Source: Gekko japonicus
Taxonomy: Eukaryota
Direction of reading: 5' to 3'
Assembly: GCF_001447785.1 (NCBI RefSeq)
Contig: NW_015172034.1
Span: 359,804-423,803, forward strand
Length of the DNA: 64,000 bases
Under the pieces are notes generated by a model. The model was not told the DNA's origin. It made no database searches and saw nothing but the letters and a program-made list of their open reading frames with translations. Positions 33,973 through 60,763 of the stretch are shown piece by piece (the first letter of the stretch is position 1; the number at the start of each line of letters is the position of its first letter). The translations under genes were made by a program, and so were the position numbers.

Positions 33973-34137
33973 CCAGGACTCTGTTGTGGACTTGTTGGTA
34001 TCAACAGGAGGAGGAGATGCCAAGTGGAGTCCCTTCAACTCTTCGTAGGGAAGAGTCTCCTTCTCAGATCCTGAGGAGGCTAGACTTACAAGAGAAGGTG
34101 TTTCAGGCATGGGGATGAACTCTGCATTCTCCAGCTC
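33973..34137 (-). CDS. NEK9: NEK9 exon 20
   Basis: actag|[31 protein letters not shown]|gtaatg; 165 nt. Confidence 0.9.
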
Positions 34138-34469
34138 CTAGTCACAGAGAAAGGGTGAGAATTCTGGGTCAGCATTTCTTTACACTGTTAACTACCACCT
34201 GAAGAATAAGAATCAAGGATATAGGAAGATTTCTGACTAGAAGATGGAAAACCTTTCCATGAATGCTGAGAGGGCTGCAGTCACAGTCTGTGTATAAATA
34301 CACTGGAAGTCAGTATATATGTACCAGCAGATAGTGAGCAAAGTAAACTGTGCCTTGGTCCAGCTTTGGCTCCTGAGTCCATTTCCTCTACCTACTAACT
34401 GCAAGAGGTTGTTGCTGCACGAACTGGGAGCAGTGATCACAATGCATTCATGTCAATGGTAAGTTACCC

Positions 34470-36500
34470 ATAAAAGCCAGAACAGTAACATTTGATTTCC
34501 AAGGAGGGAATTTTGCAAAAATGAGGGAACTAGTCAGAAGGAAGCTGAAATGGAAACACAAGAGAATCAAATCCCTAGAGGATATTTGGAAGCTATTTAA
34601 AACCACACTAATTGAAACCCTGGTAGAATGTATTTCCCAGGTTAGGGAAGGTACGCCCAAGTCCAAAAGGATGCCCACACAGTAACAACCCATGTTAAGA
34701 AAGCCACGAAAGGCAAAAAACCTTCTTGCAAAAAGAGAATTTGGGGAGCGGATTGCTAAAAGCATCAAGAAAAAGAGTAAACATTTCTTTAAAAATATCC
34801 AGTACAGGAAACCAAAAAGAGAAGCAGTGGGGCCTTTGGAGGATTGCTAAAGGAATAAAAGGAATAAAAGGATTGCTAAAGGGAGATGTCAGAGAAGCTT
34901 CGCATCTGTGTTCACCGGGGCAAGAGTGGGGCATGTACCCAGGCTGCAGCCACTATTTTCAAGAAGAAAGACTGAAGAAATAAGTCAAGATATGGTGAAA
35001 AAAGATGAAGTTCTAGAGATACTGGGAAAAATAAAACCCTGTACATCTCCAGGTCCTCACGGCATACACCCAAGGGTTCTTAAGGAACTCAAATGTGAGA
35101 CTGTTGATCTACTAACCAGTACATGTAAATTCAGCCGCTGTACCAGAAGACTGGAGAGTAGCAAACTTTACACCAATTTTTAAAAAAGGATCTGGGGAGA
35201 ACCAAGAAATCACAGGCCAGTTACCTTAATGTCTGTCCCAGGCAAATTAGTAGAAACTGTAATCAAAGACAGAATTATTAGGCACACAGAGGAGCAAAGC
35301 CTACTGAGGTAAAATTGGCATGGCTTCTGTAAAGGGCTGCCTCACCAACCATTTGGAGCTCTTTGAGAAAATGAACGAACACGTATATAAGAGCAACCTG
35401 GTAGACAATACTCGGAAATTCCAAAAGCCTTTTGACAAGGTATCTCACCAAAGACTCCTGCATAAGTGTAGCAGTCATGGGACAAGAGGACATGTCCTCT
35501 TATGGATTAAAAATTGGTTAAACGACAAGAAGCAGAGAGTAGGAATACATGGACAATTTTCTCAGTGGAAAGAAATAAACTGCAGTCCCACAAGAATCAT
35601 TATTGCAGCCAGTGCTAATTTGTTCATAAATGATCTGGAACTGGAAGTGAGCGTTACAGTAGCCATATTTCTGCAGAGGACACAAAATTATTCAGGATGA
35701 TGAAAACCAATGTTGACTGAAGAGCTCCAGGAGGATCTCCACAAATTGGTAAGAGAGCAACAATTTGGCATGTAAATTCAATGAAGGTAAGCAGACGGTG
35801 ATGGGCACTAGAACAAAAATTCCCCAACTGTAAGTATGTGTTACAGGGTTCTGAACTTGCTGATACTGAGAAGGAAAGAGACCTTAGGGCTACAGTGGAT
35901 AGTTCAATGAAAGCTACAACACAGTGTGCTGCAGCAGTGAAAAAGGCAAACTCTATGCTTGGAATTATTAGGAAAGGGATTGAAAATTAAATAACCAATG
36001 TTCTAATACCCCTATATAAATCTATGGTGAGGTCTCATGTGGAATACTGTGTGCGGTTCTGGTCACCATATGTCAACAAGGACATTGCAGAGCTTGGAAA
36101 CGTACAAAAGATGGCAACTAAGATGATTAAGGGCACCTTTCCTATGAGAAAAATCTGAAGAGGCTGGGACTAAACTGAAAACTGAAACAAAATTATGAGG
36201 TAGAGAGGGTGTAAAGAGAGAGCTTTTTCTCCCTATCCCAAAGTATTAGAACTTGAGGGCATACAATGAAGTTTATTGGCAGTAGATTTAGGACAGACAA
36301 AAGGAAATACTGTTTTATTCAACAGTTGGTTAAAATGTCTAATATGCTGCCAGAGTATTTCCTGAAGCCCACAGACATAGTGGGCTTTAAAAGGGAATTA
36401 GACAGATTCAGGGAGGACAGGTCTATCAGCAGCTATTAGCTACTAAAAGGACTAAAAGTAACCTCCACATTCAGAGGCAATAATTCTCTGAATACCAGTG
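34470..36500 (+). mobile_element. Degenerate CR1 LINE ORF2
   Basis: SPGPHGIHPRVLKELK, CLTNHLELFEK, KPFDKVSHQRLL, EYCVRFWSP with frameshifts and stops. Confidence 0.88.
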
Positions 36501-36509
36501 TTACAAAGA

Positions 36510-38040
36510 CTTGGTGCTACAACTGCAAAGGCCCCTCCCAAGTTGCCACCTACCTAAGGGGGCACCCGAACCAGGTCCTCAAATGATGACTGTAGTACTT
36601 GGGCAGGTTCATAAGGGAGTAGGTAGTCTTTGAGGTATGCTTGTTACAAGTCATATATGGCTTTAAAGGTCAACACCAGCACACTGAATTGTGCCTGGAA
36701 ACAGATTGGGAGGCAGTGCAAATAGGCCAAGAATTGAGTAATGTGGTCCCTATGGGTTGCCAGCATGATGGGGTCTTGCTGGCCACATAGTCCCCAACGA
36801 GGATATGAAATCTCCTGGGTACAGAGTACACTTCTTTAGTCGTGGATGCACCACAGCCTATTTCAAAGCTGGGGTGACCATAGCCCCTCTCAAGGAGGCA
36901 TTCACTACCTCTCAGATCCAGTCAGTCAGCCAGCCCCCCCCCCCCGATTTAAGTAGCTAGAAAGGCAAGGGACATACAAGCAGGTGGTAAGCCTTAAACC
37001 TTCAAGGATTCTGTTCACATCCTCAGATGAATAAATTGAAAAATGTCCCAACAGTTGGACAAGTTGGAACACTGACATCATCTGACTTTGTTACTGCTAA
37101 TGTAGAGTCGAAGTTGGTAAGGATGCAAGAGATTTTATCTACGAAGTGTTGTGCAAAATAGTCACAGTCGGCCACTGAGGAGTCTTCCTGCAGGTCTGAT
37201 CCCACCAAGCCTCTGACCACCTGGAACAGCTCCACTGGAAAATAGTTTGCAGACACAATGATGGCAAAAAAGTATTTTTTTTCTTTGCCACCATCACCGC
37301 CACAGAATATGCTTCAAAATGAGCTTTAGTCCAAGTCTTGTAGGATTTGTCCCAAGTCTTCCTCTACTGTTGTTCTTGCCATCTCTCTTGCCTTTTCATT
37401 ACCCACAGCCCCTCAGTAAAATAACGGGCTACCTGGGCTCTAACATCTGAGAGAGGCACCTGGGAGTGATCGTGTCCACTGCCAGGGGTCATTTCCTCAT
37501 TCCAGACTTCACTCATGGTGGCATCACCAGGAACACCAACCATATCAACAGTGAAACCCCCTAGAGCAGTCAGAAAGCCATTCAGATCCAGCTGGCTACA
37601 GAGACAGATTATTTTAATAGATCTTGTCTATTGTCCTGGTATCTCTGTAAATCTGAACCCAAGCAAATAGTGTCCATGACAAAGGAACCATCATCAAATC
37701 TTTCTCCCTGAGATCATTCACCCCACCCAGAACAAAATACCAGATCAAGGTTGTGACCTGCACAATGTGTAGGTCCACTTATTTTCTGAGACAGGCCCAT
37801 GGCTGTCGTGGAGGCCATGAAATCTTAAGCCTCTCCAGACAAGATAGCCTCGGCATGAATGCTGATGTTCCCTGGGGCAACCAGCCTGGAGGTCTTCAGT
37901 ACCACCCCTCCCGCCGAGACCACCTCTGTCAGATCAAGCAGGGAGACTACTAAGCAGTAGGATGGGTGGTACACCAACAGAATACCAATGCTGCCTCTCC
38001 ATCCCAACATTAGGTACACAGCCTCAAAACTGTCCTAAAT
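36510..38040 (-). mobile_element. Degenerate L2-like LINE ORF2 pieces
   Basis: GILLVYHP, AGHNLDLVF, FAQHFVDKI and HCLPICFQAQFSVLVLTFKA remnants. Confidence 0.7.
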
Positions 38041-38467
38041 GGGGTATTGTTAACTTACCACAAAAATCTACTTAGTCAGTGAGTTCTCTGCAATGGTTGA
38101 AAAATCAGCTATGAACACCTATTAGCTGTTAAAGTAGCAGCAGCAGGATCTCCTTCCTTGGACCCCCCTTTTGATCCTGAGTTGAAATTCCAGGTGGATT
38201 ATCCTTCTAAATAAGATCTGCTTTGTGTTGGTCTGAACAGGTTAGCCAAGAAGCTTCACCCATCAAGCAATTCCAACTACTGCCTTAAGAAAGACTCCAA
38301 AGAAGTGATTCTGAAACAGATTTCCTGTGATCGTTTAAAGAACTGCAAATTCATGTCTAGAGATAAGCCTCTCAGCCACATCTTCTAGGTCTTTGGTGGG
38401 AAAAGATCACTTTTCTTTTATCTTCTGACCCCAGAGACTACAGAAAAGTCAATTTGGAAATGGTCAC

Positions 38468-38661
38468 CTTGCGCAGCCAGCTAGGGCAAGAGCTGCTGGC
38501 AGCAGCACTGCTATCTCCGATGTCTTCTGTCGAACTGACACGATCCCCCATTCCGCGGTCTGCTTCCATGGTTCCTCTGAAACCTCTGCTGGGATCAGGG
38601 GTCTCAGATTCCCGCTCACTTTCCTCATCTTCTCCTCCTTCAGCTGTCGAACTCTGAGCCA
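38468..38661 (-). CDS. NEK9: NEK9 exon 19
   Basis: gctag|(V)[32 protein letters not shown]|gtgacc; 194 nt. Confidence 0.93.
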
Positions 38662-38997
38662 CTAGCAGAAAATAGGATAATTGCAGCATGATTTCCTGGT
38701 CTGGGAATTTTCGGGATAGCCATGATATAAAAAGGAAGATAATCTCACTTATCTGTGGGGTGAAGTGTCACTTCACCCTAACTGTGTAAAAATTACAACC
38801 CCAGAAGATAAATGTTTAATTTGCATGCTTGACACTCAGGGGGTTAACCTCCAAAAGGTAAGCAAAAGGATGTACATAAAATCTTTCCAAGGAGCATTCA
38901 GTCTGTCTAAATATGGAGGATGGCTTTTCCGATGTTAAAAGAAGGTAGGCCAATGGAGCAAAAGAGGTGTTTTCAGTACCTCTAGGAGAGGCACAAG

Positions 38998-39213
38998 TTT
39001 TATTTTATTGAGATATATATACCCCACTTCTCACCCAATGGGAACCCAAGTCAGTTTACAATATTATTATCCCTTCCCTCCATGTTATTCTCACAGCAAA
39101 CCTGTGAGGTAGGCTGAGAAGAGGTGACTGGCCCCAAGGTCACCCAGCAAGCTTCCATGGCAGAGTGGAAGCCAGATCCTAGTCCAGCACTCTAACCATT
39201 ACACTACACTGGC
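38998..39213 (-). mobile_element. CORE/MIR-like SINE
   Basis: Reverse complement of the 4683/47503 family. Confidence 0.75.
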
Positions 39214-39743
39214 TCACTGAAACAGAGCCGGTGAGAAAGGGGGACTGGGGAGACGACATTTGAGGGTTTGAGGGCCCCCAGCTGGGTCTCTCCAACAGCT
39301 GACAGTAGAGTTTAGCTTCCCCTGGAATGCCTCTGCTCTGCTATTTGGGCTGCACTCTCTCTTACACACAAGACTGAGAGAGAGAGAGAGACAGATGCTG
39401 GGGGTTGGCTCAGTTTCCTCTGCCTGACTCCGCCCTGTCCCTGTGTAGCCAGCCAGCCTCACACTTTGCATGCTGGGAAGGCAGCAGGTGCATCATGTAC
39501 TCCTTCTCTCCCTCCTACGATGATTTGCATGGCAGCAGCCAGTCCCTCATCTGTCGTCATCCTCCTTGCATTATCTGCATTGCAAAAAGCCCACCCTTTG
39601 CACCATTCCCTGAGCTGCATAGAGAAGTTTCTCTTCCCCAAGAAAAGGATTGTCATCTGGTACATGAGCCCTTAGCTGGAGACAATGGGGGGGGGGCCCT
39701 TCTCAATTAACTCATGGCCCAGAGAAGACCATGATGGAGGGAG

Positions 39744-42369
39744 CAGGGCTGTTAAGAATCACATTTATTATTTATTTTGTCAGATTTCTACCCCGCCCTC
39801 CCAGCTGAGGCCAGCTCAGGGCGGCTTACATAAAAAAGTGCATAAATTACAATAAAAACAAGTAAAACACTTAAGACAATACTACAACCAATTGATGACA
39901 TAATAAATGCAAGTATTATTGTCCTTGTTGATTGTTGATTGTGATGCTGCAGAGGCAAAAACGTTTCCAGGCAGTTCTTCAGAATTAGCATCCCAGGAAA
40001 AAGATCAGTGTCTAAAAAGCAGTGGGAGTTCCAGATAAGACTGCCAACTGACCAAGAAAGAGGATTGGTTTGCACCTCTGCCTTTAATGGCAGCCTGATC
40101 TATCGAAATCAGCAAGGGCACTTTTGACAAAACAGAGCAAACATTTATTATTGGCTTGTTCCTGCAGTTCAAACTGCTGTGAGAGGCACAGCAATAGGAG
40201 CTAGTAAGAAAAAAGTTGGCAATCCCTAGATCTGGGTGAGGAGAATAGCAGGGGGTTGTGCGGGGCATTTGGTGCTGGTGAATGGAAAGGGATGGATTCA
40301 GGATGGACTTGGGGGGAGATCATGGGCAATGTTCCCTCTAAGCTGTGGAGTTTTGTGAGCAAAAATTCTATTTAGTGAGCTACTGGTATTAAAGTTGTGA
40401 GCGAGCGATTTGGCTGCTGCATAAATTAGTTTGCTCTGGAGCCCTCCTTCCTGAGCTAAGACAAAAATGTGTGAGCCGGAGGCTAAAAAACTGTGAGCTA
40501 CCTCACACTAACTCAGCTTAGAGGGAACACTGCATGACATTAACCACACTTTACTCAGTGAGCCATCAGAGGATGTGGCACACACAGCCACTGAGTCATC
40601 TGAGGCTTTGGCAGGCAAAACATTGATACAGCAGTTTGATTCTGATATTGGCTTTTTACAGAGTGAAGCCCCTACATCTGCAGAGGTAGAAGAAGCAGTT
40701 CAGTGAGGTTCATTTCCAGTTTCTCTTCTTCATGCTAGATTACAAAACAGTGAAACTTTCCTTCGTGACCAGTTAGTTTGGAGTAAAAGCAAACAAGCTT
40801 GCTGCCTATTTAGTATTCTTCCAGCATCAGGTTGTTTCTCACTTTCATCTGTTAATGGATACTGCAGCCAACCTAAGTGGATCAGGTTGTATGACAAAAT
40901 TTCAACACCAAGAAACCAAAAACCATAAAACCCGTTATGTTACTTGGCAAACCCCAGAAAAATGCTTGGGATATTATATTACAGTTTATCAACAACTGCA
41001 AAAGAAAATTCGAAGTGAAGTAGCGGTGTGGAAACAAATCCTTCACAGAATATTAGATGAGACATTGCTTCTTGGAGAAAGAGGCCTAGCATTTGGGGGT
41101 GAAACTCAACAAATTGGATATCCTAATGATGGCAACATTCTTGGGAATCTTGGGCTGATAGCCCACTATGATCCCAACCTTGAAGAACGTATCAGCAGAG
41201 TGAAAGAGTTTCAAGCAACCCATCACTGCTTGCAGTATCGTTACTGGTCCGCTGATATACAAAATGAATGTATAGAATGTTGTGCTGCACACGTACAAAC
41301 GGGTCATCTTAAAAGAAAGAGAACTATCCAAATACTATGCTATAATTGCTGATGCAACCCCAGACTCAGCACACTATGAACACACTGAGTTCATTCTGCT
41401 TTATGTCCACTTCAGCAATGAGAAAGGTACATATGAAATTCAATAAAGGGTTCCTAGAATTTGTTGATTGCTACAAGAAAACTGGTGAAGCAAGGTTCAC
41501 AGATGAGACTTCAAATGTCAGTGAAAACCTACATGAATATCATCCAGAGGAATGTGTCAAGAAGCAAGTCTGCTCTGTTCTTCCTGACTGCATAACTAGC
41601 AATATGACAAGACGCTATGAAGCAATTAAAAAGTTAGACTTCACCTTTGGTTTCTTGTGGAAATACCCAGATTTGGAAAAGAATGAAATGGAAGATGTGG
41701 TCAAAGAATTTAGTACTGAATATTGTGGTGATGTGTCTGATGATCTCATGGAAGAAATGAAACCTCTGAAGGCTGTCCATTCTGCCAACCTGGGATTGGA
41801 AGTTTTGTCCCCTCTTCAACTTGAACTCTGAAGGTCAAGACCAGCACTTTGAATTATGCCTGGAAAATTGTGACTAGGAGGCACTGAACTTAGCAAACTT
41901 ATTTCCTAACTGCCCTCTACCTGTCACTGCTGCCCAAGATCCTCAATGAGCCAAAGTCATCTGTCAGCTTTAGGAACCTTGGCAGTAGAGGCACAGCTTG
42001 CCCAAAAACTTGACTCTGATAGTATTATCAAACTGTTCGCTAGCCAAAAAGCTCACAGAATACTATGAGCTAGATTTCTTCAAATCTGTGTCTTCTCATT
42101 TAAAGCTGACAAGTGCTAGATTGTTGTTATCTGAAAGTGGGTTTGTTGTTGTTTTCTTGCACCATATCTTATTTCAATCTGCACTGTAAATGAAATCTGT
42201 TCTTTAATAATCCTGTCCCTTTCCCTTTATTAATGTTTCTTACCTAACGAACAATTATTCAATTCATAGATGGTAGCAGCTAGCTGAAAATATTTGGTTT
42301 CAATCAGGGTCGTGGGGGGTGAGGGTGGAATCTCTGTCTGGGGGCCCATGGTGGCTCTTGGCAGCCCTG
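39744..42369 (+). mobile_element. Decayed hAT (Tip100/ZMYM1-like) DNA transposon with nested insertions
   Basis: Broken transposase (LLLGERGLAF.G, GNILG, IQNE.IE, IIADATPD, FLEFVDC, LPVTAA..SQSHLSALGTLAVE); imperfect TIR CAGGGCTG..AAGA at 39744 and 42369; no TSD seen. Confidence 0.7.
40327..40532. mobile_element. hAT-type MITE (family of 25171)
   Basis: Same TIRs and body; no matching TSD. Confidence 0.85.
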
Positions 42370-42519
42370 CATTGAAATACCTAATCAACAAATTTTGAAG
42401 GCTGGAAATTAGCATTTTCCCATGGGTAGAAGGATCTGCTGGGCTTCTTTGGTTTAAAAACAGAAAAGACATTCAACTGGGAAAAATACCAGGAATGGCT
42501 GGCAGATGCCAAGATATGA

Positions 42520-42720
42520 AGAAAAAGAACATGCTGTCGAGTGGCAACTGACTCATGGTGACCCCTACCACAGGGCATTCCAGGCATACGATGAGCAAAG
42601 GTGGTCTCTGCCCCTGCTTTCCTCCACACAGCAACCCCAGTCTTCCTTGTTGGTCTCCCTTTCATATATTGGCCGTGGCTGACCCTGCTTAGCATACAAA
42701 CTCAGGTGAGCTCAGGCCAA
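42520..42720 (-). mobile_element. Diverged 5S-derived SINE
   Basis: Minus strand GCTAAGCAGGGTCAGCC..GGGAGACCAACAAGGAAGAC; related to 22441. Confidence 0.55.
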
Positions 42721-43211
42721 ACCAGGCTGCTAAAATGTGACCTAAGTGAAATTAAGTGGCTTCATGAGAAGGCCTAGAGAACACAAAAGAATAAAGTAAA
42801 TGTTGAGTAGAATCTTTTTTTAAAAAACCACATCAAAGAAAAACAAGAGCTGAAGACAGCACAGTAATTATTGCTTCTTTTGTCTTCTCTTTGCTCTTTA
42901 GTACTTTGATGATTTTCGCTAAACTACATGCCATTCCTTTTTTGCAATCAAGGGCTGCAAATATAAGTAAAGTTCTTTTTCTTTTTATGAATGGAGTTAT
43001 AGTGCTCCACATGCGTCCACATAAAGCCTAACTTGGTATGCATGCCAAAGTACAAAGAGAAGAAATGGGTTGACTCCTGCCTGGATTTGAACAGATAAGA
43101 TGCCCAAAGGTTCCAACATCCAAAGTAATCTGGAGCATATGGAGGTCAAGAAAAACCTGGGGTTCTTAATCTGAAGAAAACCTTTAAAGAGACAAAAAAA
43201 TGATTACTTAC

Positions 43212-43274
43212 CAGTCCCAATGGATAGGCCACTGCTACTTGAACGAAGGATGGTTTTAGAATTTATCACTTTTT
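43212..43274 (-). CDS. NEK9: NEK9 exon 18
   Basis: cacag|(E)KVINSKTILRSSSSGLSIGT|gtaagt; 63 nt. Confidence 0.93.
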
Positions 43275-43415
43275 CTGTGGAGAAAGAAAGGGATTTTTTA
43301 AGTAACGGGTTTCAGAAGAATCTGGGAATGCTGACACATGCTGACATATTTCCTCTGAAAGAATATGGCCACTCTTCCAAGTAATCTCTAGTTAAAGAAG
43401 ACACGTATCCATGGA

Positions 43416-43680
43416 CATAAGAAACATAAGAACATAAGAGAAGCCAATGTTGGATCAGGCCAATGGCCCATCCAGTCCAACACTCTGTCACACAGTGGCC
43501 AAAAATACCAGGTGCCATCAGGAGGTCCAGCACTGGGGCCAGGACACTAGAAGCCCTCCCACTGTTGCCCCACCACCAAGCATCAAGAATACAGAGCATC
43601 ACTTGCCCCAGACCGAGAGTTCCTATCTATACCTTGTGGCTAATAGCCACTGATGGACCTCTGCTAATAGCCACTGATGA
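43416..43680 (-). mobile_element. CR1 3' end
   Basis: CATAAGAA repeats followed by the reverse complement of 15190-15435. Confidence 0.85.
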
Positions 43681-43706
43681 AGCTGGTGATCCGGGGACTT
43701 TCCTTA

Positions 43707-43922
<216 letters not shown>

Positions 43923-44069
43923 TCATACAGCCTTTTAGACACCTTTTGTTTGAGTGGCCAGATTCTGAAATTTCCCCCTTTGTGCTACCATTCTCCAAGA
44001 AGGACCTTAGGACCCTACAAACTCAGGCCCACAGAAATACATTACAAGCCCACCAGTGGCCATACTCAC

Positions 44070-44231
44070 CATCAGTAGCAGCTATAGTGAACTCATCACC
44101 GCAGGAAACCCTGATAACCTGCTTTCCCCCGAGGGGTCCTCCAAGCAGATTAATGCCCACACGTTTCTTATAGTCTCCGACACCCAGCTGCCCACACTTG
44201 TTGGAACCAAAAGTAAGCAGACGGCCCCGTT
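44070..44231 (-). CDS. NEK9: NEK9 exon 16
   Basis: (E)[33 protein letters not shown]|gtgagt; 162 nt. Confidence 0.95.
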
Positions 44232-44812
44232 CTGAAAACAAAACCAAACACAGAGTCATTGCGGAAATCAAGACAGAAAGGTGCTAAACTCTGCTGGAGA
44301 ATCAGTCGAGCCACAGGAACATCAGTGTATGTCATAGTAAGATAGTGAAAAACCTACCAGTTATGTTGCAATGTCAATTACTGCTACATCAATGGTAGGT
44401 TAAGTGTATGTTTTAAAGCATCAGTCTTTTCAGTAACTCTTCCCTGAACACATAGGCCTGTACCTGAAAAATCCTGAAGCTCCATTACTGTTGACTGCCT
44501 AGTAAGTGATACTGTATGCATCATTCCTTATCACTCTAAGGAACAGAAGCCCCAAGTCAGTAGCAGACATGATTACCACGCACCCTAATATGCCTCACTG
44601 CAAAGAATTTCAGTATTCATGGTTCTATACACAAAGGTAAAACCTAGACTATTCTATCAACAATGGTTTATAGAACTAGGCTGCATAGCAGACTGAAGAT
44701 ACGCAAATTAAGATGGCACTTATTTCAGTGAATCTGCCCTAAAGGAGATTAGTGTACTCTTATCCAGGTGGGACTATACCGCAGGGTTGAATGCAGTTTG
44801 AGCAGATCTCAC

Positions 44813-44901
44813 CATCTATAGCAGCTGTGTGTGTCTTTCCTGGGGCAATGGTGCGAATCTTGTAGAAAGAGAGCTTCCTGGCCAAACTGAAGGTGGTGGG
44901 C
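44813..44901 (-). CDS. NEK9: NEK9 exon 15 (out of frame as assembled)
   Basis: ctttag|GCCCACCACC then [26 protein letters not shown]|gtgaga; 89 nt where 3n+1 is needed. Confidence 0.85.
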
Positions 44902-45342
44902 CTAAAGAATGAGAGAAACCAGTATGACAAATCTAATGCCAGGATCCAATACTCACATACACCTTTAGATCTTCTTCGTGCAGGGCTACAGTAAGCCACA
45001 AGGGTACAGATACAGGTACCATATAAGTCAGTCCTTTCAACTCCTGCTTGGATCAAATGCTAAACTTCTTATATAGACCCCTCATAAATATGCCGTAATA
45101 CTGCACAACCAAAGTAAGCTTTCTGCAAGATTTCGTAAATCACAACTGTTCCCCTCCCTCTCTTTTCCTTTTATCATTCTGACTGGATCCTAAGCAAAAT
45201 ATACACACTCTTCTTTGCCATTTCCACTTATTTATATCCCATACTTCCTCCAAAGTTACAATACATGGATAGAATGATCCTATAACCCCTCCCAAAAGAA
45301 CATCTCTCTCATTTTTAGTGTTATCCCAGAAATGCTGCTTAC

Positions 45343-45498
45343 ATCATGATTAATGATCCCTGAAGTACACTGGTTCAGACCCAGCTTGTTGAATTCATTC
45401 AGACCACAAGCTAAGACCTTGCCAGCCTGTGTGAGCAGAAAAGTTCCATCACTGCCACACTGGACTGAGACAATATTGGAGGTCTTCTGAATTTCCAC
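45343..45498 (-). CDS. NEK9: NEK9 exon 14
   Basis: [45 protein letters not shown]|gtaagc; 156 nt. Confidence 0.95.
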
Positions 45499-45909
45499 CT
45501 ATAAAGAGCAATATCAAACATCATAAGACAGAGATACACAAAACATCAAAGCACCAAATGAATACCAGATACTGTATGGCAGTAAAGCAGAAATCAAAGC
45601 TTCAGCCAGAATACAACAGCTGCAGAGACATGGATTGATCCACTTAATACTTCAGAAGGTACAACAGCAGTGCACTGTAATGAACTGATCATAGAATTAC
45701 TTTCTTCCATTGGCTTATCACTTAACTATCTGAATCCTACCAAGTTTGTAGAAATAACTGTTCTAGATTTACAAAAATATGTTGTAGGGAACAATATGAC
45801 TAAGATAGAGGCCATTTATTGTTCCATCAAAGGAAAAATGCTCCAGAAAAGAGATACAGTGAACCTGCCTAAAGCTTGCAAGTTATGACAAAGGACCAAC
45901 CAGTGTTAC

Positions 45910-45956
45910 CTTCTGTGGGAGGGAATAATCATCTTCTGAATCCAGCCCTAGGCGTC
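45910..45956 (-). CDS. NEK9: NEK9 exon 13
   Basis: tacag|(G)RLGLDSEDDYSLPQK|gtaaca; 47 nt. Confidence 0.92.
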
Positions 45957-46366
45957 CTGTATTTGGAAAGACACAATCAGACATAGCCCTTATTTCTCAT
46001 GCTAAAATGACATGATTATGGAGAAATGACTGTTATTTAAATTTCAAGCAATTCTGCCCAATTATGAGGAAACAGGACTGACACATTTCTTAAAGTCAAA
46101 GATACAACATTCCATGTTTGATGGAAACCAGTTCTTGTGTCCATTTTTTTTAGAATGTATTCCCTTTGAAATCTTCTACAACCTCAGCTCTAAAGAAATA
46201 TAATCCTGTCACCAGCTAGTACCTTTCAATTGTTTTGCTGTGCAACTACACTGTAGTTTCATCATGAAACTTAAGAAGTTGGTATGTGTTTGTTGAAGTA
46301 TCTATTTACTTTGTTCCATCCCTCCACCCCCAGCATCAAAGGCAGAAGAGAAAAGAAATCACAAAC

Positions 46367-46567
46367 CATATTCTCCACAGCCCCATGTGTAGACCTCTCG
46401 GTTTCGGGTCAGCACAGCCACATGGTTATCTCCACAAGATACCTGCTCCACAGAATTGTTGAGAAAGAAGTTCAGCTGCTCAGGTTCTAGAACCTCAGAG
46501 CCAAAAGCCTTGTCAACACCTATACAGCCATAGTAGTCTGAGCCAAAGGCAAAGACCTGACCTTCAT
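46367..46567 (-). CDS. NEK9: NEK9 exon 12
   Basis: (D)[41 protein letters not shown]|gtttgt; 201 nt. Confidence 0.95.
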
Positions 46568-46809
46568 CTGCAAAAAAGGAAGGACCAGGTGAATTAGACA
46601 TGAAGTGTACCTCAGTTTACTTAGATGTCCTTAACTAAAAGCCAAAGGCTGCCCAAGGTTATCTGCATCTTTAACACAGCAAAGCTAAAATAAAAGGTAA
46701 GCTAATCCTACCATTACCTAAAATAACCTAATCATTTAGATCAAATTAGGTCAGCCGAATGCTGCGACCAGTGGATTCCATATCTATGCAGATTCCGTTT
46801 CTATGATGG

Positions 46810-47010
46810 GATGAGGCCATGACTCAGCAGTAGAGCATCTGCTTGGCATGCAGGAGGTCCCAGGTTCAACCTCCAGCATCTCTAATTAAAAGGTTCAGGT
46901 GGCAGGTGATGTGAAAGCCCACCACCTGGGACCTTGGAGATATGCTGCCAGACAATGCTGACCTTGATGGACCAATGGTCTGATTTGGTATAAGGCAACT
47001 TCATGTGTTT
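46810..47010 (+). mobile_element. tRNA-derived SINE with CR1-like tail
   Basis: TGACTCAGCAGTAGAGC A-box-like, GGTTCAACC B-box-like, GATGGACCAATGGTCTGA tail. Confidence 0.7.
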
Positions 47011-47198
47011 ATGTAGCACATTTTTATTCTGCCCTTTCTTCAAGGAGCTCCTATAACTCAGTATACCTTGTCTCATTTGACCACTGTCATTATGTTTCAT
47101 GCTCTCTTGCTAGCAAAGGTTATTTTCTTTTTTCACGGTTAATGCAAGATTTCGATTCTACTACAGTCTATATACTTTGCTGTATATTTGCCTCTCAC

Positions 47199-47343
47199 CC
47201 GTGATGCACACAGTAAAGTCATCTCCACAAGACACTTGGCGAATAGCCTTGCCCTGCAGTTTTTCCACATGCTTCGGTTGCCTGTATGAGGCTCTGTCTC
47301 CATGCCCCAGTTGGCCATGCAACTTGGTGCCCCCTTGCATGTT
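47199..47343 (-). CDS. NEK9: NEK9 exon 11
   Basis: [48 protein letters not shown]|gtgaga; 145 nt. Confidence 0.95.
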
Positions 47344-47502
47344 CTGCAAAATACAGAAGTATGGGTGAAGGATACTGAAGGATGTATACCTGGAATTCCC
47401 AGTCAGAACCAAATAAAAGAACAATATAGGGCTTTTGTGGAGATCTGGAAAGGGCTGCAAATGCTTGCAGTGCACTTCCATGCACACACCTGCAGGTGAA
47501 TC

Positions 47503-47745
47503 TGGCCAGTGCAGTGTAATGGTCAGGGTGCTGGACTAAGATCTGGGAGACTCAGGTTCAAATCCCCACTCAGCCATGGAAGATTGCTGGGTGACCTTGG
47601 ACTAATCACTTGCTTTTTTGAAGCCTAACCTAACTCACTGGGTTGTTGCTGTGAGGATAAAGTGGCAGAGAGGGGAACAGAATAAGCCACTTTAGGACTC
47701 TACTGGGCAGAAAGGTGGGGTAGAAATGAGGGGAATAAATAAATT
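47503..47745 (+). mobile_element. CORE/MIR-like SINE, near full length
   Basis: tRNA head (GGTTCAAATCCC), GGGTGACCTTGG core, AATAAAT tail. Confidence 0.8.
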
Positions 47746-48370
47746 TCTTCTGTTCCATGGGATGCTGTTCCAGATGGCCAATCTTTGAGGGAGAGGATTT
47801 TCAGTAGGTGGGGTTTTCACTGGTAGAGGGAACAGAAAAGTCTTTTGGACCTTAGTCTTAATCAGAAAAAAGTGGGACTCTCAGAATGGGTTAACACTAT
47901 TAGGATCTCTTATATGCCAACAGGGTGCAAAAAGGGTGATGGGGGAAGAGAATGCTTGGGCATCCTAAATGGCAGTTTATCTCCCACGACTGGTGCTGGC
48001 ATGCCAGTCAGCCGACCAGTTGATTGCTGGCTATCACTGGGTTACAGACAAATATTCCACGAAGCCAAGAATGCCACTGAGCCCTTTTATTTCGTTATGG
48101 CGTCATTTGTTACCAGGGGCAGGAAGGAGGACTGCTTGCCCCCTAACCCTGCAGCAAGCAGTACTGTAAAGCTTCTCTCTCTGGCCACATCTATAAACAT
48201 GGCCATCTCTAAACAGGAAGAACTGGCACTCTGTCTGCCTCATAACTGCCTTTTAAAAAAACCCCTTACTTTTAAAAGTAGCAATTTTTACCTAGGCTTT
48301 ATCTGGGACACCAAGGTTACCATACAATTTCAGCTAAAAATGAAAACAGTACAGAAATAAAGCAAAAAGG

Positions 48371-49583
48371 GACTTCTGGTTGATGGCGGCACGTTAGCAG
48401 ACTCACCTCCCGGACCTCCCGGGGGTGAAGCTGTGCTCCGGCCGAAGGAGGGGGTGCGCAGGCTCGTCACCCCCCCAGGGACCCGGGTAAAGGGGCTCTG
48501 GCCATGGGACTTATGAGAGGTTGCCTCTTCGCCGGCGGAATGCGTGAAAGAAGTGGACGCCACTGCACAAAAGGTGAAAAAGAAAGTTCAAAAGCTGGAA
48601 AAGAAGCAAATCTCTACAGAAGAACAGCTGCTACAACTACAAATGGAAAAGGCTAATATGGTTCTCCGTTTCCAGGGCATGCCAGAGACTAAGGGAGAGA
48701 ATCTGAAGGAATTAATGAGTGAAACATTGGCCCCAGTGACAGATATGAAGGTGGAATCTTTGTTAAACAATAAAGATGTGGCCTACAGGTCATATTCTGG
48801 ATATATAAAGAAAAATAATCTGCCTGGGGAAATTATGGCGAGATTCTCGAAGAGGCATGTGAGGGATGCAATCCTGAAAGCGGTATCTGGAGTACCCCTG
48901 AAAGTGGGGGAGACTACCATCAGAACATTGAAAGACATTCCATTTGAAATAAGACAAAGGAGAAAGAAATACAAAGATTTAATTCTTTTCCTTCAGACAA
49001 ACGCAATTGGATATAGATGGTTAACTCCAGAAGGCGTAACCTTCAAGATCAAGGATAAAAAAGAAAAGATTGACTCTGTTCAGAAAGCATGGGAATTTTT
49101 AAGAGTCCAGTTGGGTGAGCCAGAGGAAGAAAGAAGAAAAGGGAAGGATATGAAGTCCAATGGCGAGCTGGACTCGGAATCTTCCGGGGAGGACTCTCTT
49201 TCAGGGGAAGGGGCGGCAGCCCCTAAAAGTCCTTGTAAGTTACGGAAGAGATTAGGCAAAGAGAAGTAAAGGCTGAAGGACTCTGAACTGTGCTTTAAAA
49301 AAATGTGTAGATGAGATGCTTTGGGGTGTTTCTGTATGGCAGTGAAACTTAGATTTGGAAATGTCAATGCTTTATTTGACTCAGTTTATAGTAAGATTAA
49401 CAGGAGGGAAGACTAAACTTTTGTTTAAGCTGGTTAGAAGATCTCCTCTCTTGGGATTTTAGTCAGTAGTGGGTATCTTTCTTTATCCCCTTAAATGTAG
49501 TACCCCTCCTCTTTTCTGTTATAGTTTGTAGTATGAATAAAAATACAATAAAAAATCCCCTCCGGGGGCTATTAAAAAAATAA
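48371..49583 (+). mobile_element. ORF1-only L1-type retroelement (HAL1-like); ORF1p-like frame at 48544-49269
   Basis: L1-like 5' end GACTTCTGG..GATGGCGG; coiled coil plus LRFQGMPE..GENL, RRKKY and YRWLTPEG motifs; AATAAA and A-tail; 18-bp TSD AGAAATAAAGCAAAAAGG. Confidence 0.8.
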
Positions 49584-50095
49584 AGAAATAAAGCAAAAAG
49601 GATGGATCACATTTACAGAAACTTTATTATCATTACAATAATTCACTGCAGCTTTTCTTAAAAGTGTCACAATAAGTTAACAAATTCATTTTATGCAATA
49701 ACTACAAGCATCAGCTTTGGTGATGACTCTAGCATCTTTGTTGAGTTCTAATAAACTTAATGATTTGACAATATTTGTTCAGGGAGTTAGAAATATTTTT
49801 TGACTGATCAAATGGCCAGCTCCACTCAGGATTGTGCAACAAAACTCAGACAGCTGAGCACTGCATGATGTCAAAATGAATTTTTTTAAAAAATTAATAA
49901 AGTAAATCCATTCTTGACACTGAATTTGTTAGATATTACATAAATAAGACATGTCCTTATGCTTGCATCCACCATCTTCACGTATCCAAATGCTTCCCTT
50001 ATTAGATTAACAAACTGGGAGGGGGTTCAATCACAACCACTCATTCTGCCACTCCATCCCAAGCTTCCCAAGTTCTTCCAACACATTTTACTTAC

Positions 50096-50288
50096 CACCC
50101 ACGTATAGAGCTCCTTCTCCACTGTCACCACTGCAAAGTGAGTGTTTCCTGCGCAGACCTGTCGTGCACTGCAACCACCCTTGATGACATCTAGCTTTTG
50201 AGGAGTGGACTTTCCACCGCCCCATACATACACTTCACTAGTGCGTGAAGTCACCACTGCAATGGGAGCCTCATTCATAGTGCTTGAT
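50096..50288 (-). CDS. NEK9: NEK9 exon 10
   Basis: [38 protein letters not shown]|gtaagt; 193 nt. Confidence 0.95.
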
Positions 50289-50354
50289 CTATAAAACATA
50301 ATGGAGTAGGGAACAGTCAAGACTGTTCAGCATAAATCCCATTCCAGGTCCTAC

Positions 50355-51215
50355 AACAGCAGATGTGCTGGAAGATCAGATTTTTAAATATATCCAGAGC
50401 AGGAAAACCAGTCAGAGAAACAGTTGGGCCTTTGGATGACAAAGAAATAAAGGGATTGCTAAAGGAAGATGGGGAGATGGCAGGGAAGCTCAATGACTTT
50501 TTTGCTTCTATGTCCACCGTAGAAAGTGTGGGGCACACACCCATGCTACAGTCCCTATTTTCAGAGAATCTGAAGAACTGAGACAAATTGAGGTGACCAG
50601 AGATGAACTTCTAGACCTACTAGGTCCTGATGCCATATACCCAAGAGTTCTTAGGGAACTTAGTAGACAGTTGATCTACTAACCAGTATATGTAACCTAT
50701 AACTAAATTCAGCCCTTGAAGCAGAAGACTGGAGAGTGGGAAATGTTAACACCAATTTTTAAAAAGGAATCCAGAAGGGATCGAGGAAATAACAGGCAAA
50801 TCAGCCCAATGCCTCTGCTGGGCAAATTAGTAGAAACTGTAATCAAAGACAGAATTGTTGGGCACATGGAGGAACAAATCCTGTTGAGGAAAAATCAGCA
50901 TGGCTTCTGCAAACAGAAGTCCTGCCGCACCAACCATTTGGAGTTCTTTGAGAAAGTGAACAAGCATGTAGACAATGGTGACCTGGTAGACCCGGTAGAC
51001 GTTATATCCTTGGACTCACCAAAGATGCCTGAGTTAACTTAGCAATCATGGGATAAGAGGATAGGTTCTCTTATGGATTAAAAATTGGTTACATGACATA
51101 AAGCGAACAGTAGGAATCAATGGACAGTTCTCACAATGGAGGGAAGTAAGCAGTGGTGTCCCACAAGGATTGGTATTGGGGCTGGTACTATTTAATTTAT
51201 TCATAAATAATATAG
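50355..51215 (+). mobile_element. CR1 ORF2 fragment
   Basis: RETVGPL, KLNDFFAS, NQHGFCKQKSC.TNHLEFFE, SGVPQG. Confidence 0.85.
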
Positions 51216-51613
51216 TCTGGCAACCTTGTCCAGAATATTACCATCTTCTAAACATTTACACACATCTCACTCTCTCCATTATTAAGCGTTCTCTTCCAGT
51301 AACTGACTGTCATCTCAAAGGGGGAGGGGAGTAAACCCCACAGCAGCATTTGTACCCGAGATACGCAACAAATAAAGGATGACTATAGATTACAGCATAA
51401 TTTATTGTAAAACTATACAGCTATTGAATTAATAGGCAAAGCAGAAAGAATACAATTTGGTGTGAAGTCATTTCAGGCTTATAGTGAATGGTAGGGCATC
51501 CTTAAATTCTATAAAATGATAATTATCACATCCTATAACATCATACATTGAAAACATAATTAAACCTAACATTGTTTCACTGTTACTTTCAACCAAGTGA
51601 GGGGTGTAGAGAC

Positions 51614-51819
51614 TAGGGTCGCTGGCTCTGGATGGGAAATTCCTGAAGATTTTGGGGGTGGGCAGGCTGTGGGAAAGGGAGGGGCTTCAGGGGAATATAA
51701 TGCCATAGAGTCCACGCTGCAACACAGCCATTTTCTCCATGGGAACTGATCTTTGTTGCCTGGAGATAAACTGTAATCCCAGGAAATTTTCAACCACCAC
51801 CCAGATGTTGGCCATCCTA
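51614..51819. mobile_element. TAGGGTTGCCA-type MITE
   Basis: Similar to 4192-4408. Confidence 0.7.
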
Positions 51820-51873
51820 CTACGGACTGATTTTCTTCAGTGCCACTCAACACACAAACACCTCCTGTCTTAC

Positions 51874-51924
51874 CTTGGTCGCTTGTTTGGGCCATTAAGC
51901 AGTGCAACTTTCTCCTCCATTTCC
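51874..51924 (-). CDS. NEK9: NEK9 exon 9
   Basis: ggcag|EMEEKVALLNGPNKRP(R)|gtaaga; 51 nt. Confidence 0.93.
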
Positions 51925-52598
51925 CTGCCAGAAGAAAGAATAAACATTAAGATCAGCAACCATCTATTACTACTGTGCTTCTCATAGAAGATCAGAACAT
52001 GCTTTACCATCACCACAAGACACACAGAGGAATCACTCCCACTAAACTGGTGCACCACCATCAGTGGTGAAATGTGATCAAATGCCAGTGCCAGTGCCAT
52101 CCCACTATAGCCTGCTGTGTTCCCTGAAATCCTGCTCCTAGGGGGGGGGGGGTCAGTGAAAACAAAGTGGGGTCCTGCAGTGAGAATGAGGAAGTGGCAG
52201 AAATCTTATGTAAGTGCAACACAGCATTTATGTATGTTTCTTATATTAGCTGTCAAGTTTTTGCACTTAAAGAAAAGGGTGGATAGATATATGAGTGAAA
52301 AAGTTTAAAAGCACCATGTGGTAAATGTGAAGATGTTCCTCTTAACTTGCAGAAGTCATCCAAGACGCTCCTTTCAGAAGGCTAACAGTGGAAATACGTG
52401 TTAGGAGGAAACAACAGATTCCCAATAGATCTCCAGCAATGTGTTTGCAGGAGATATGCATTGATGGGGAGAGGAGTGCTTAGCCCTCCTCTTACTTTTC
52501 CTTTGCAACCCCACCCCCATCTATTTTTCATCGCCAGCAAATACAGTTGGAAAAAGAAGTTGGAGAGAACACAGGAGGAGTGGCAAGTGAGAAAAGTT

Positions 52599-52624
52599 AC
52601 ACACACACACACACACACACACAC
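52599..52624. repeat. (CA)n microsatellite
   Basis: Direct reading. Confidence 0.9.
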
Positions 52625-53308
52625 CACTGTTCTCTATCCCCACCATTTTGTGCACTGACAGCAAACACTGGGTGCCAAATTCTGTGCTTTCTGCCCAGCA
52701 CAATTGTCAATTGGGTGCCATGATATTTGGTGGATTTTCATTTATATCATACAATAAATCATTTGGTACTGTAAGTCTACAAGAGATGTATAGTGTCCCA
52801 GACAGAAGTCTAGTATTACAGCAGTGGAAGAGAGGGGGTTTTGTACAACTTCATTATTTGCATGCATTAGCTCCTTGAAAAGGTATTCTTAACAAATTCT
52901 CACATATATCTATTATTAGAAATAGTTCGCATTATTTTATTGTTTTGACTACTCTAAAGCACTTCACATACAGTACCTTGTTGTAATCCTTACAACAACC
53001 CTGTAAAGTAGGTCAGCATTATCCCCATATGAAGGCTTATTGTACTTCTATAATGTAAGACAAGGGTTAAAATTTTGTGTTTAGATTTATAAAATTTCTA
53101 ATACCATTAGAAAGCCCCTTTTTTCTTGTAAGACCTGACTTTTTCCAGAGACATTCTTTGGGGAGTCTTTAATGACAGCCCTACTTTAACGTCCGTAAAA
53201 AAAAGAATTGCATTTCAGACTCCAAGGGTTCCCACTAGAATCAAATATGGGTATAAAGGAAGTAAATAAAGAATACTCATGATGTTCAAGACATATATGA
53301 CTGTTTAC

Positions 53309-53373
53309 CTCCTGCGTTGGCTGAGAAGGGGACAATCAAGGAGCTCATCCGCAGTAGGCCTCTTCTCAGGATC
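53309..53373 (-). CDS. NEK9: NEK9 exon 8
   Basis: ttcag|DPEKRPTADELLDCPLLSQRR(R)|gtaaac; 65 nt. Confidence 0.93.
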
Positions 53374-53761
53374 CTGAAAGAGGTGAGGGACAGGTCACTC
53401 CCTAAGGAAAGGGATCATTTTTTAAAACAATGACTTAGGGCAGAACAGCTAACCACAGTTTTGTGATCTCTTTCCATTTCCCCATAAGCTAAAGAATTAA
53501 AGTATTAGGCAGAAAGTGAAAAGTTAAACAAGAATAGTTAAACTGTAGATTGAGCTTTCCAAAGTCAAGGGGACTGGGTAGCTGCTTTCCTGTTGCTAGA
53601 GTTCCTGGACAGCCGAAAACACTAACTCAAAGTATTAAGAGTTCAGTGGCACAGAATGCCAAGAAATGTACATCTCTAGTTGCTGAAGCCTATACAAGAC
53701 CAGCCTCCACCTCACTCTATTATGGACACCAAAGCTGATAGATAGCTGTTCTCTCACCAAC

Positions 53762-53872
53762 CTGATCAAGGCAGGAGTGCACCATCTGAATGAGATCCAG
53801 AGAATACACACTGGAATCAACCTCCATGGCTCGGTTGCCTTGCACAATCTTCACACAGAGGTTCAATGGATT
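53762..53872 (-). CDS. NEK9: NEK9 exon 7
   Basis: [37 protein letters not shown]|gttggt; 111 nt. Confidence 0.94.
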
Positions 53873-54132
53873 CTAAAAGGAAATAATGAAATAAGCTCAA
53901 TGGAGATGAAATACCTGCCTGAGAAGGCAAGCTATTATTCACCATTCTAAGTAGGCAAGCAGGACATCAGCAAGGGAGCTCAGGACCAGACTAAAGGGCA
54001 CCAGCACCCCTATAGAGGAGATGCCCAGTATATCTAGATCTCTCACTTCATAAATTTTCAACACTGGGTTAGTCTCTCCCAACTAAGACACACACAAAAA
54101 GGAAGAGACAAAACTAAGAGAAAAGAAAGCTA

Positions 54133-54288
<156 letters not shown>

Positions 54289-55775
54289 CTACACAAAATA
54301 AAAAAATATTAGAGATATTCTATCCAGATCCTTATCATATCATCAGACATAGTTTATGTTACAGGAGTTACATTACTCCTGCAAGTGGCAAGTTTCCTGT
54401 TTTAAATATAACCCAACCCCAAAATATGATGCTTAGAGTTTAAGACTGTGATGTTATAAGTAACTACTGGGTTTCACCATCCTGTTAACCACTGGAAAAT
54501 GGCTAGCAAATTACCTTTCAGTTATCAATTTTGCTCAACCAACTGGAGATGCATTGTGAATAATATTACAACGAAAATAAATGGCTGAATGCATGAGAAA
54601 GGAAACATAATGAAGGGTAAGGAATGAGTCAAACTAAACAAAAAATGACAGGAAACCAATGACATAATGAGGACAGATAGTGCAAGATATGCAGAGATGT
54701 AAGATATGTAGAGATCTGCAAGTGTGGGTGCCAAGGGAAAAAATACAAAATTAGAAGGCCTGGCCCATCTAACCTTTCAAATGCATCATGTACTACTAGG
54801 GCTTTGATCTATTTCAGTTATTTCATTTGAGGCATGCTCTGAAAAGAGCATTCTGTTTCACAGAGACAATGAAATAGGACAGACCCTGCTCTAAATTAGA
54901 CAATACAAACTGCAAGACTCTGTGTGCTTCTTCTAGAATAAATTATTTTGGGGCTGCTTCACAGATTTTTTTCCTTTTTCTCTTTGTAAAAGTACACCTA
55001 AAAATATTATAGGTATATATATGGCAGACAAGTACAACACCAGTATATTTGTCAGGGAACAGGGACTAGTCACTATTCACTGTCAGGAGTACATTTAGTA
55101 GCAAATTCAGATTTGCTACCCCGTAGAATGTGGAACGGTCCCAATCTCAAAACCACCATTTTATTCCAAGTTATTTTCCTGAAGACAAATATGATAGATG
55201 ATGGATGAATGTATAAGTGGCACATCACTGGAGAAATAAAACTCAATATTTTAAATTTTCTTGCTTTATCATTTTGCTTTTGTATTATAACACTGTGGCC
55301 AATACAAATGAGGAAAGATGACATTGTGAACAATAATACTGTGTGACAGTTTAAGGAAACATGTTCCTGTGAGAAGCAAAAAATGACCTAAGAAGCAGCT
55401 AAGCCTTTCCGAAGGGATAGGCTACAGTTTTAAGCAAATCAAAGAGAGAGAACTAAATGATGATTTCTGGAGCCAAAGCTGAAAGATTGAAGAGATTGCA
55501 GAAGCCATAAAAACTGAACTACATACGAAAAGGAAGAAAATAACTCTTTTAATATTGCTACGTTTGATGGTTTGGAACATTGTAAGAAAAATAATCTCAG
55601 TCTAACCAACCATTTATAATATTAGAAATAAGATACAAGTACCAAGAAAAAATCTACTGAGCAGATGGTGAAGATACATTTTCCAACAGCACCTTCTGAG
55701 CAATAAAACAGTTTGTAAATGTTAATGAAAGAATTTAAAAGGGGAGTATGGAAAGAAACCAGCATAAAGCGTTCA

Positions 55776-56021
<246 letters not shown>

Positions 56022-57226
56022 TTAGGACTTGCATACTGCCATTTCATCTTTCATTAATTTTACTCTTACAAGTTTAATTGAATTCCTCTCCATGCTTACA
56101 GCCTCTCTGAGTTTCACTGCAACAACCAACAATCAAGTTGTATTACATCACGTGAACAGAAACAAAAATAAAACTCATACTTCTAAAAATGTAATTTTAT
56201 ATCAATTAATACTTTCATTTTCCAGGATTTTTGTAAAGATACAGGCCAACTGAGAGGCTGGTTCAGTCTCTGCTATTTCCTGTTAAAATTAACAAGTGTT
56301 GGTTCTCTACTTGAAATTCTGGAAAGCTGCTGCCAGGCAGAGTAGATAATATTGAGCTAGATGGACTCCACATAAGGCAGCTCTAGAGAAAGGAATTTCC
56401 CAACAACTGCTACCCAAAATTCTTTTCAACTGGGACCTTCTGTAAACAAGCCACTGCCATATGCTCTGTCACCATATGAATAGTGGGCAGACTGGATAAC
56501 TGCTTTACACTCCTCTGTGTGGGTGTTACCATATGTAACCTGCATTAGGAAATTCAATTTAATCTACCCTAGTTTTTTAACATGTGTGTGTGTGTATTTC
56601 TAAATTGAAAAGGGAGCAAGAAGGACACTAATGGGCGATCCTAAGAAGAGTTACACCCTTCCATCACGATAAAAGGTTTTAGAAAGGTGTAACTCTGTTT
56701 AGAATTGCAATGTAAGTGTGCTTGAGTAGAAAAATAAGGTGAACTCATTAACAAAAGATCGGCTCCCTGGCCACTGGAATCCTGCTTCAGTCTGCTTTGA
56801 TTCACAGCCATCAGAATAAACTGCTGGTATTTTGTCAAGATTTCTGCTGCATCCACAAAGAACAGAAGAATGTATTTCTAATTGAAATCAATTCTTAGTA
56901 TAGCCCCTATAAATCAAAAGGTTTTAATTGGCCTTTGAATAGTAACTTCTTCAGTCTTTCTTCAAGAGGAGAAAACGGCAGCAGTGGTTTAGAGAACTAG
57001 GAGCCTCCAAGATACAAGAATATCTGAGGTCTGAGCTTCTGCTTGCCTTCTGTCAATAAAGTACTTCACAGTAAGAGGCACAATTTTAGTTTAAAGGATT
57101 TACAAAAAGGTAGGACTCTTTCAAGGGAACAGGCTAAAATCGCACAATGTACACCATGTCAATAAAACAGAGAGCTGACTACAAACAATATGCCTATGAG
57201 GCAGGCTACCTGTGCTGAGTGCTATT

Positions 57227-59221: not shown

Positions 59222-59237
59222 AATGAGTACCACATTC

Positions 59238-60544: not shown

Positions 60545-60763
<219 letters not shown>

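What the first reader, a model, noticed from the sequence alone, without database searches (positions are those of the whole stretch)
44813..44903. Apparent 20-nt frameshifting deletion in NEK9 exon 15
Seen: exon 14 ends in phase 0 and exon 16 starts in phase 1, so exon 15 must be 3n+1 nt, but the only good acceptor (tttctctcattctttag) gives 89 nt. Spliced as written it reads AHHLQFGQ... and forms TG|A, a stop at the 15/16 junction, removing the rest of the RCC1 propeller, the NEK6/7-binding region, the coiled coil and the LIR. Knowledge: orthologues have ten codons (AYHEVPYTTS in human, recalled) before the Phe, but only 10 nt (GCCCACCACC) are present here. Inference: 20 nt were lost between CACCA microhomologies. 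All other exons are intact and conserved, so a heterozygous null allele or a consensus error is more likely than gene death.
Basis: partly seen in the sequence, partly recalled or inferred. Interest (0 to 1): 0.7.

Follow-up and report, generated by a model that had tools for sequence, protein, structure and literature searches.

The report
Likely assembly error in gecko NEK9
This draft gecko genome lacks 20 bases of one exon of the cell-division gene NEK9, but all seven public DNA and RNA data sets that cover the spot contain them, so the break is likely an assembly error and not a lost gene.

Summary
NEK9 exon 15 is 89 nt in this assembly, and spliced as written the gene stops at codon 598, on the exon 15/16 junction. 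It is not the species' state. Of 8 runs laid, 7 cover the site, and all 7 (2 DNA, 5 spliced; 6 studies) carry 20 more bases. These give a 109-nt exon and an unbroken 966-aa frame. Two window-only substitutions lie 13 and 22 nt from the gap, at squamate-invariant residues. Together they turn 22 nt into an exact copy of an unrelated locus (chance about 0.002-0.01). Best reading: a badly built patch of the assembly (0.72). A private heterozygous allele of the sequenced animal remains possible (0.24), since no run could be tied to that animal. The public predicted protein P0121 hides the frameshift with 14 intron-derived residues. The scan's notes show nothing near this place. Low interest: a database correction.

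The parts
44813..44901 (-). NEK9 exon 15 as assembled, 89 nt (109 nt in all informative runs)
   Evidence: RNA joints at 44813 and 44899-44901
44899..44900 (-). Site of the 20 missing bases, 2 nt inside the exon; single placement, no microhomology
   Evidence: 20 letters put in behind 44899
44887..44887 (-). Window-only substitution, Ser for Thr at codon 580 of the 966-aa frame
   Evidence: other letter in 7 of 7 informative runs; Thr in 105 of 106 motif-matched proteins of 120
44878..44878 (-). Window-only substitution, Arg for Lys at codon 583
   Evidence: other letter in 7 of 7 informative runs; Lys in 105 of 106 motif-matched proteins of 120
44871..44892 (+). 22-nt stretch holding both substitutions; exact match to an unrelated place, G000:C2243 near 1,034,400 (L005:1498-1519)
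45343..45498 (-). NEK9 exon 14, 156 nt, ends in phase 0; its donor at 45342 is the one used in RNA
45302..45342 (-). 41 nt of intron 14 that the public model P0121 adds to exon 14 to restore the frame (weak donor, score -0.8); no RNA joint listed here
   Evidence: joints
44070..44231 (-). NEK9 exon 16, 162 nt; its first base completes the premature TGA in the as-assembled frame
31856..60739 (-). NEK9 exons 2-22 (exon 1 lies outside the window, L002:3091-3282)
   Evidence: Pfam kinase and RCC1-like domains

Best explanation
The assembly lacks 20 bases of NEK9 exon 15 that all seven informative data sets contain, and the gap is likely an assembly error in a short, badly built patch. The patch spans about 44878-44900. 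The consensus there likely skipped 20 nt and took two letters from a read of a look-alike unrelated locus, as can happen at a closed gap or a low-coverage join (inferred; the assembler's step is not shown). The normal gene has a 109-nt exon 15 and encodes an intact 966-aa NEK9. The automatic annotation then compensated by extending exon 14 into the intron, so the public protein carries 14 residues not seen in any spliced data laid here.
For: (1) 7 of 8 runs laid cover the site, and 7 of 7 carry the 20 nt and the ancestral letters at both substitutions. DNA contigs X1 (depth 73 of 73) and X2 (119 of 119) show no second allele listed. Spliced contigs X3, X4, X15, X17 and raw RNA reads X21 agree (X21: 10 of 10 reads at each substitution, 3 junction reads, 6 and 31 loose ends). 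(2) With the 20 nt the frame is 966 aa with no stop and 95-97% identical to five gecko orthologues. (3) Three window-only changes fall in about 22 nt. 2 of only 4 private changes at 716 squamate-invariant columns follow the gap within 8 codons, P about 0.0006, a post-hoc figure. (4) The two substitutions make an exact 22-nt copy of an unrelated locus. Of 16 letter combinations only the window's occurs elsewhere; the expected count is 0.002-0.004 for one test. (5) X3 shares the window's letters at 43802 and 46386 and in low-depth intron contigs where X1 differs, yet its exon 15 is intact. (6) No microhomology such as a repair deletion would often leave. (7) Homozygous Nek9 knockout is embryonic lethal in mice (PMC8172835, passages). 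Draft assemblies carry false frameshifts that annotation hides (PMC9516821, passages).
Against: No run could be tied to the assembled animal, so the direct test is missing. X22, the only raw DNA run, had zero depth at 44789-44986. Only two DNA data sets are informative, contigs drop rare variants, and RNA would under-represent an allele subject to nonsense-mediated decay. PMC9516821 notes that Illumina-based assemblies have fewer frameshift errors, and a clean 20-nt gap is not the usual 1-bp slip. Compound indel-plus-substitution variants do occur naturally in the flanking introns (44629-44642 in X1 and X15; 44966-44978 in X2). No shared repeat links L005 to the 84 kb examined, and the junction 18-mer has no other exact match, so no specific assembler path was found.
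Confidence: 0.72

Rival explanations
1. A real, rare, heterozygous null allele of the sequenced animal, which the assembler happened to pick. It would have arisen in one error-prone repair event (blunt 20-nt deletion plus two nearby substitutions, possibly copied from the distant look-alike locus). Its mRNA would be removed by nonsense-mediated decay: the stop is about 960 nt upstream of the last junction.
For: NEK9 disease in humans is recessive, with homozygous or compound heterozygous patients (PMC13401987, passages), so carriers are expected. Compound variants exist in the neighbouring introns. Distant-template patches at breaks are known (PMC5110952, passages).
Against: Seen in 0 of 7 informative runs from 6 studies. 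It needs two separate steps, since 7 native bases lie between the patch and the gap. The intact allele is nowhere in G000 as an alternative contig, which is weak evidence because short contigs may be dropped.
Confidence: 0.24
2. NEK9 is broken in the species or lineage, or it is rescued by another splice site (the 41-nt exon-14 extension of P0121, an internal acceptor, or a 3n+2 microexon).
For: Open-frame alternatives exist on paper. Alternative donors at 45287 (score 3.6) and 45302 (-0.8) compare with 4.2 for the true donor. 53 of 143 microexon candidates are stop-free.
Against: All five spliced data sets join the normal exon-14 donor to a 109-nt exon 15, and no other joint is listed. The five stop-free in-frame acceptors score -0.2 to -10.5, against 1.8-16.5 for the true ones. 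Scores come from a rough matrix built from this gene's 21 introns.
Confidence: 0.02
3. A decayed duplicate of exon 15 was collapsed onto the true locus in the assembly.
For: Would explain a deletion plus amino-acid changes clustered in one exon.
Against: One match in G000 by DNA and one by protein. No second exon-15 contig with the window's letters in DNA runs X1 or X2.
Confidence: 0.02

Closest known systems
False frameshift / false gene loss in draft vertebrate assemblies (PMC9516821; passages seen)
   Same: An indel in one coding exon of an otherwise intact gene, absent from reads, and hidden by an annotation that bends the exon structure to keep the frame (their PCDH17 example; here P0121).
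   Different: Their frameshift class counts indels under 10 bp. Here the gap is 20 nt, comes with two substitutions, and is compensated by a 41-nt false exon extension, not a 1-2 bp false intron. No run could be tied to the assembled animal.
Vertebrate NEK9 (gecko orthologues P0001, P0004, P0006, P0014, P0016)
   Same: Kinase plus RCC1-like domain; 95-97% identity once the 20 read-supported bases are counted.
   Different: Only the as-assembled exon 15 differs: a 20-nt gap, S580 for T and R583 for K.
Human recessive NEK9 truncations, LCCS10, e.g. p.Arg497* (PMC13401987; passages seen)
   Same: If real, the allele would also truncate inside the RCC1-like domain (347-712 in P0014).
   Different: Not shown to exist in any animal.
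Class 2 templated sequence insertion polymorphisms (PMC5110952; passages seen)
   Same: A short stretch matching a distant locus, next to a small deletion, with shared flanking bases (7 and 5 nt).
   Different: Here nothing is inserted. It is a same-length two-letter replacement in 22 nt, whereas the experimental insertions were 73-414 bp. The deletion is 7 nt away from the patch, and no read shows the allele.

Membership tests
NEK9 | N-terminal protein kinase domain followed by RCC1 repeats | tested here: met
   Pfam PF00069 at 44-297 and PF25390 at 347-719 in P0121, which equals the window's exon model outside the exon 14/15 junction
NEK9 | Full-length orthology to named NEK9 proteins | tested here: met
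   89-97% identity to 14 squamate NEK9 proteins over 807-966 aligned residues
False frameshift (assembly error) | At least 80% of mapped reads show the indel against the assembly | tested here: met
   7 of 7 informative runs, with no window-type allele listed; mostly contigs, one raw RNA run
False frameshift (assembly error) | The disagreeing reads come from the assembled individual | not testable with these tools
   Runs are coded and none can be tied to the assembled animal; X22 had no depth at the site
Microhomology-mediated deletion | Shared bases at both breakpoints | tested here: not met
   0 nt and one placement only
Unitary pseudogene / gene loss | Lesion fixed in the species, with decay in other exons | tested here: not met
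   0 of 7 runs carry it; the other 21 exons are in frame with GT-AG sites
Class 2 TSIP | Patch templated from a distant locus | tested here: inconclusive
   Exact 22-nt match at G000:C2243, expected 0.002-0.004 by chance for one test; an in-silico origin explains it equally
Class 2 TSIP | Net insertion of donor sequence at the break, seen in reads as a polymorphism | tested here: not met
   Same-length replacement 7 nt from the gap; absent from 7 of 7 informative runs

The most novel reading that the evidence does not exclude
The sequenced gecko really carried a NEK9 null allele made by one break-repair event that deleted 20 nt without microhomology and overwrote the neighbouring exon bases from a 20-of-22 look-alike on another scaffold: a germline micro-conversion from a distant template far shorter than described templated patches.
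Probability: 0.1. Interest if true: 0.3.

Novelty: not a real feature. Interest (0 to 1): 0.08.

Why it matters
Mainly as a correction. The public predicted gecko NEK9 (P0121, XP_015276126.1) carries 14 intron-derived residues in place of the conserved AYQEIPY stretch, plus two substitutions that no run shows. Its name carries no low-quality flag, so it can mislead alignments, selection tests and gene-loss screens. If the allele were real, it would be a recessive null in a gene that mice need for development, made by an unusual repair route, but in one animal only.

Tried and rejected
(1) Microhomology deletion: rejected. (2) Rescue by microexon, internal acceptor or alternative donor: enumerated and not seen in the five spliced data sets. 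Skipping exon 15 alone, or 15 and 16, is out of frame by the phases. (3) Intact allele or second copy elsewhere in G000: no match for the 20-mer, none for the ancestral letter pair, and single matches by DNA and protein. An incomplete assembly weakens these blanks. (4) A repeat-mediated misjoin at the gap: the junction 18-mer has no other exact match; two 1-mismatch hits against one in the reversed control. No repeat is shared between L005 and the 84 kb examined. (5) X22, raw DNA with about 4% of the run read: no depth at the site, uninformative. (7) Literature: 'NEK9' plus 'gecko' gave 2 papers, both CRISPR screens by their titles (listing only). That one search found no report of this lesion. 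(8) The open frame at 61984-62373 had no Pfam hit. No supplementary files were opened; none is expected to bear on these claims.

Full report
Observation. The window carries NEK9 on the - strand. Using gecko orthologues, I mapped 22 exons. Exon 1 lies just outside the window in L002. All 21 introns are GT-AG. Exon 15 (44901-44813) is 89 nt after a phase-0 exon 14. Spliced as written, the frame shifts after Ala569 and stops at codon 598 on the exon 15/16 junction, about 960 nt before the last junction. This falls inside the RCC1-like domain (347-712 in P0014). Squamate orthologues have ten residues between exon 14 and the conserved Phe, so 20 nt are missing.

What the reads show. The run search listed 24 runs and I laid 8. 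One, raw DNA run X22, had no depth at 44789-44986. The other seven, from six studies, all carry the same 20 extra bases behind 44899. These are DNA contigs X1 (depth 73 of 73) and X2 (119 of 119), spliced contigs X3, X4, X15 and X17, and raw RNA reads X21 (3 junction reads with the extra letters, plus 6 and 31 loose ends that agree). The RNA label of X3, X4 and X17 is the tool's guess and X15 is unlabelled, but their exon-exon joints show spliced molecules. With these bases exon 15 is 109 nt and reads AYQEIPYTTTF, as in Heteronotia and Euleptes. The frame is 966 aa without a stop and 95-97% identical to five gecko orthologues. No run lists the window's allele. NEK9 is therefore intact and spliced normally in the animals sampled.

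The anatomy of the lesion. The gap has a single possible placement and no microhomology, so the proposed CACCA mechanism is wrong. Two more differences sit 13 and 22 nt away, at 44887 (Ser for Thr) and 44878 (Arg for Lys). All seven informative runs have the ancestral letter at both (10 of 10 raw reads in X21). Thr and Lys each occur in 105 of the 106 proteins whose motif matched, out of 120. Of 716 columns invariant among 14 squamate orthologues, the window's protein differs at four, and two of them are these (P about 0.0006, a post-hoc figure). One of the other two, Pro959, is shared with Gekko kuhli (P0122). The window-only patch is thus about 22 nt plus the gap. X3 matches the window at 43802 and 46386 and in low-depth intron contigs where X1 differs, yet has an intact exon. 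A window-like haplotype therefore likely exists without the lesion; phase is not shown.

A possible source for the two letters. A pattern search found the window's 19-mer exactly at one other place, G000:C2243. The match extends to 22 nt, 44871-44892, and nothing else in L005 aligns to the 84 kb examined. With both positions left free, only the window's letter pair occurs elsewhere, and the ancestral pair occurs nowhere in G000. The expected number of such matches is 0.002 (base composition) to 0.004 (a rough Markov model that includes the hits). I tried two patterns, so about 0.01 is fair. This suggests, without proving, that the two letters were copied from a foreign template. In an assembly of 191,500 contigs the simplest copier is a misplaced read at a weakly supported join. 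The deletion junction itself has no foreign exact match, so I cannot name the assembler's step.

How the annotation coped. A public protein labelled Gekko japonicus NEK9 (P0121, 973 aa) is identical to my exon model for residues 1-568 and for the last 391 residues, including the window-only Ser and Arg. Between them it reads [14 protein letters not shown], which is the first 41 nt of intron 14 plus one base. The donor it needs, at 45302, scores -0.8 against 2.1-10.2 for the gene's true donors. None of the five spliced data sets lists a joint there. PMC9516821 (passages) describes the same kind of compensation for false indels.

Weighing error against allele. For error: absence from 7 of 7 runs, tight clustering of three changes, the foreign 22-nt match, and no repair signature. 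A homozygous lesion is also unlikely, because Nek9 knockout mice die as embryos (PMC8172835, passages). For a real heterozygous allele: no run could be tied to the assembled animal; only two DNA data sets are informative; contigs drop rare variants; decay would hide the allele in RNA; compound variants occur naturally in the adjoining introns; and Illumina-type assemblies have relatively few frameshift errors. That this assembly is short-read is my inference from its fragmentation. I put error at 0.72, private allele at 0.24, and gene loss, splice rescue or a collapsed copy at 0.04 together.

Comparison with known kinds. It fits a false frameshift in a draft assembly, with the same-individual test untestable here. 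It fails as a microhomology deletion and as a unitary pseudogene. It resembles a class 2 templated insertion (PMC5110952, passages) only in having a distant look-alike: there is no net insertion and no read support. Earlier scan notes on this genome mention other suspected assembly faults. I did not check them and they are not evidence here. Nothing is noted near this place.

Verdict. Real in the file, likely not real in the animal, and not a species trait. Interest 0.08; worth a database correction.

Noticed in passing
window 45302-45342; protein P0121: The public predicted protein includes 14 intron-derived residues that hide the frameshift, and its name carries no low-quality flag.
   Followed up: yes
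window 44629-44642 and 44966-44978: Compound indel-plus-substitution variants in introns 15 and 14 in X1/X15 and X2; X1's contigs differ from the window by roughly 1-2% in the introns.
   Followed up: partly
window 44805, 44946, 45054, 45279: Loose ends of X2 contigs fall at GATC, which suggests a restriction-and-ligation library such as Hi-C (inference).
   Followed up: no
window 61798-62373, with 39 N at 61942-61980: Open frame in NEK9 intron 1 that looks, from recall, like the tyrosine recombinase of a DIRS-type element; the part tested had no Pfam hit.
   Followed up: partly
window 5073-8360 (-): 1096-codon open frame with MutL-type ATPase and mismatch-repair domains; the large exon of MLH3 by recall.
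   Followed up: partly
window 16239-16514 (-): Acylphosphatase exon (PF00708); ACYP1 by recall, with another likely exon near 16750-17094.
   Followed up: partly
L005:1596 onward (G000:C2243): A young high-copy repeat (40 copies scored, 88-99% identity, of 1246 candidates) begins about 75 nt downstream of the 22-nt look-alike.
   Followed up: no
proteins P0036, P0038, P0040, P0042-P0045, P0047-P0049: Several bird NEK9 models skip the 162-nt exon 16 in frame.
   Followed up: no
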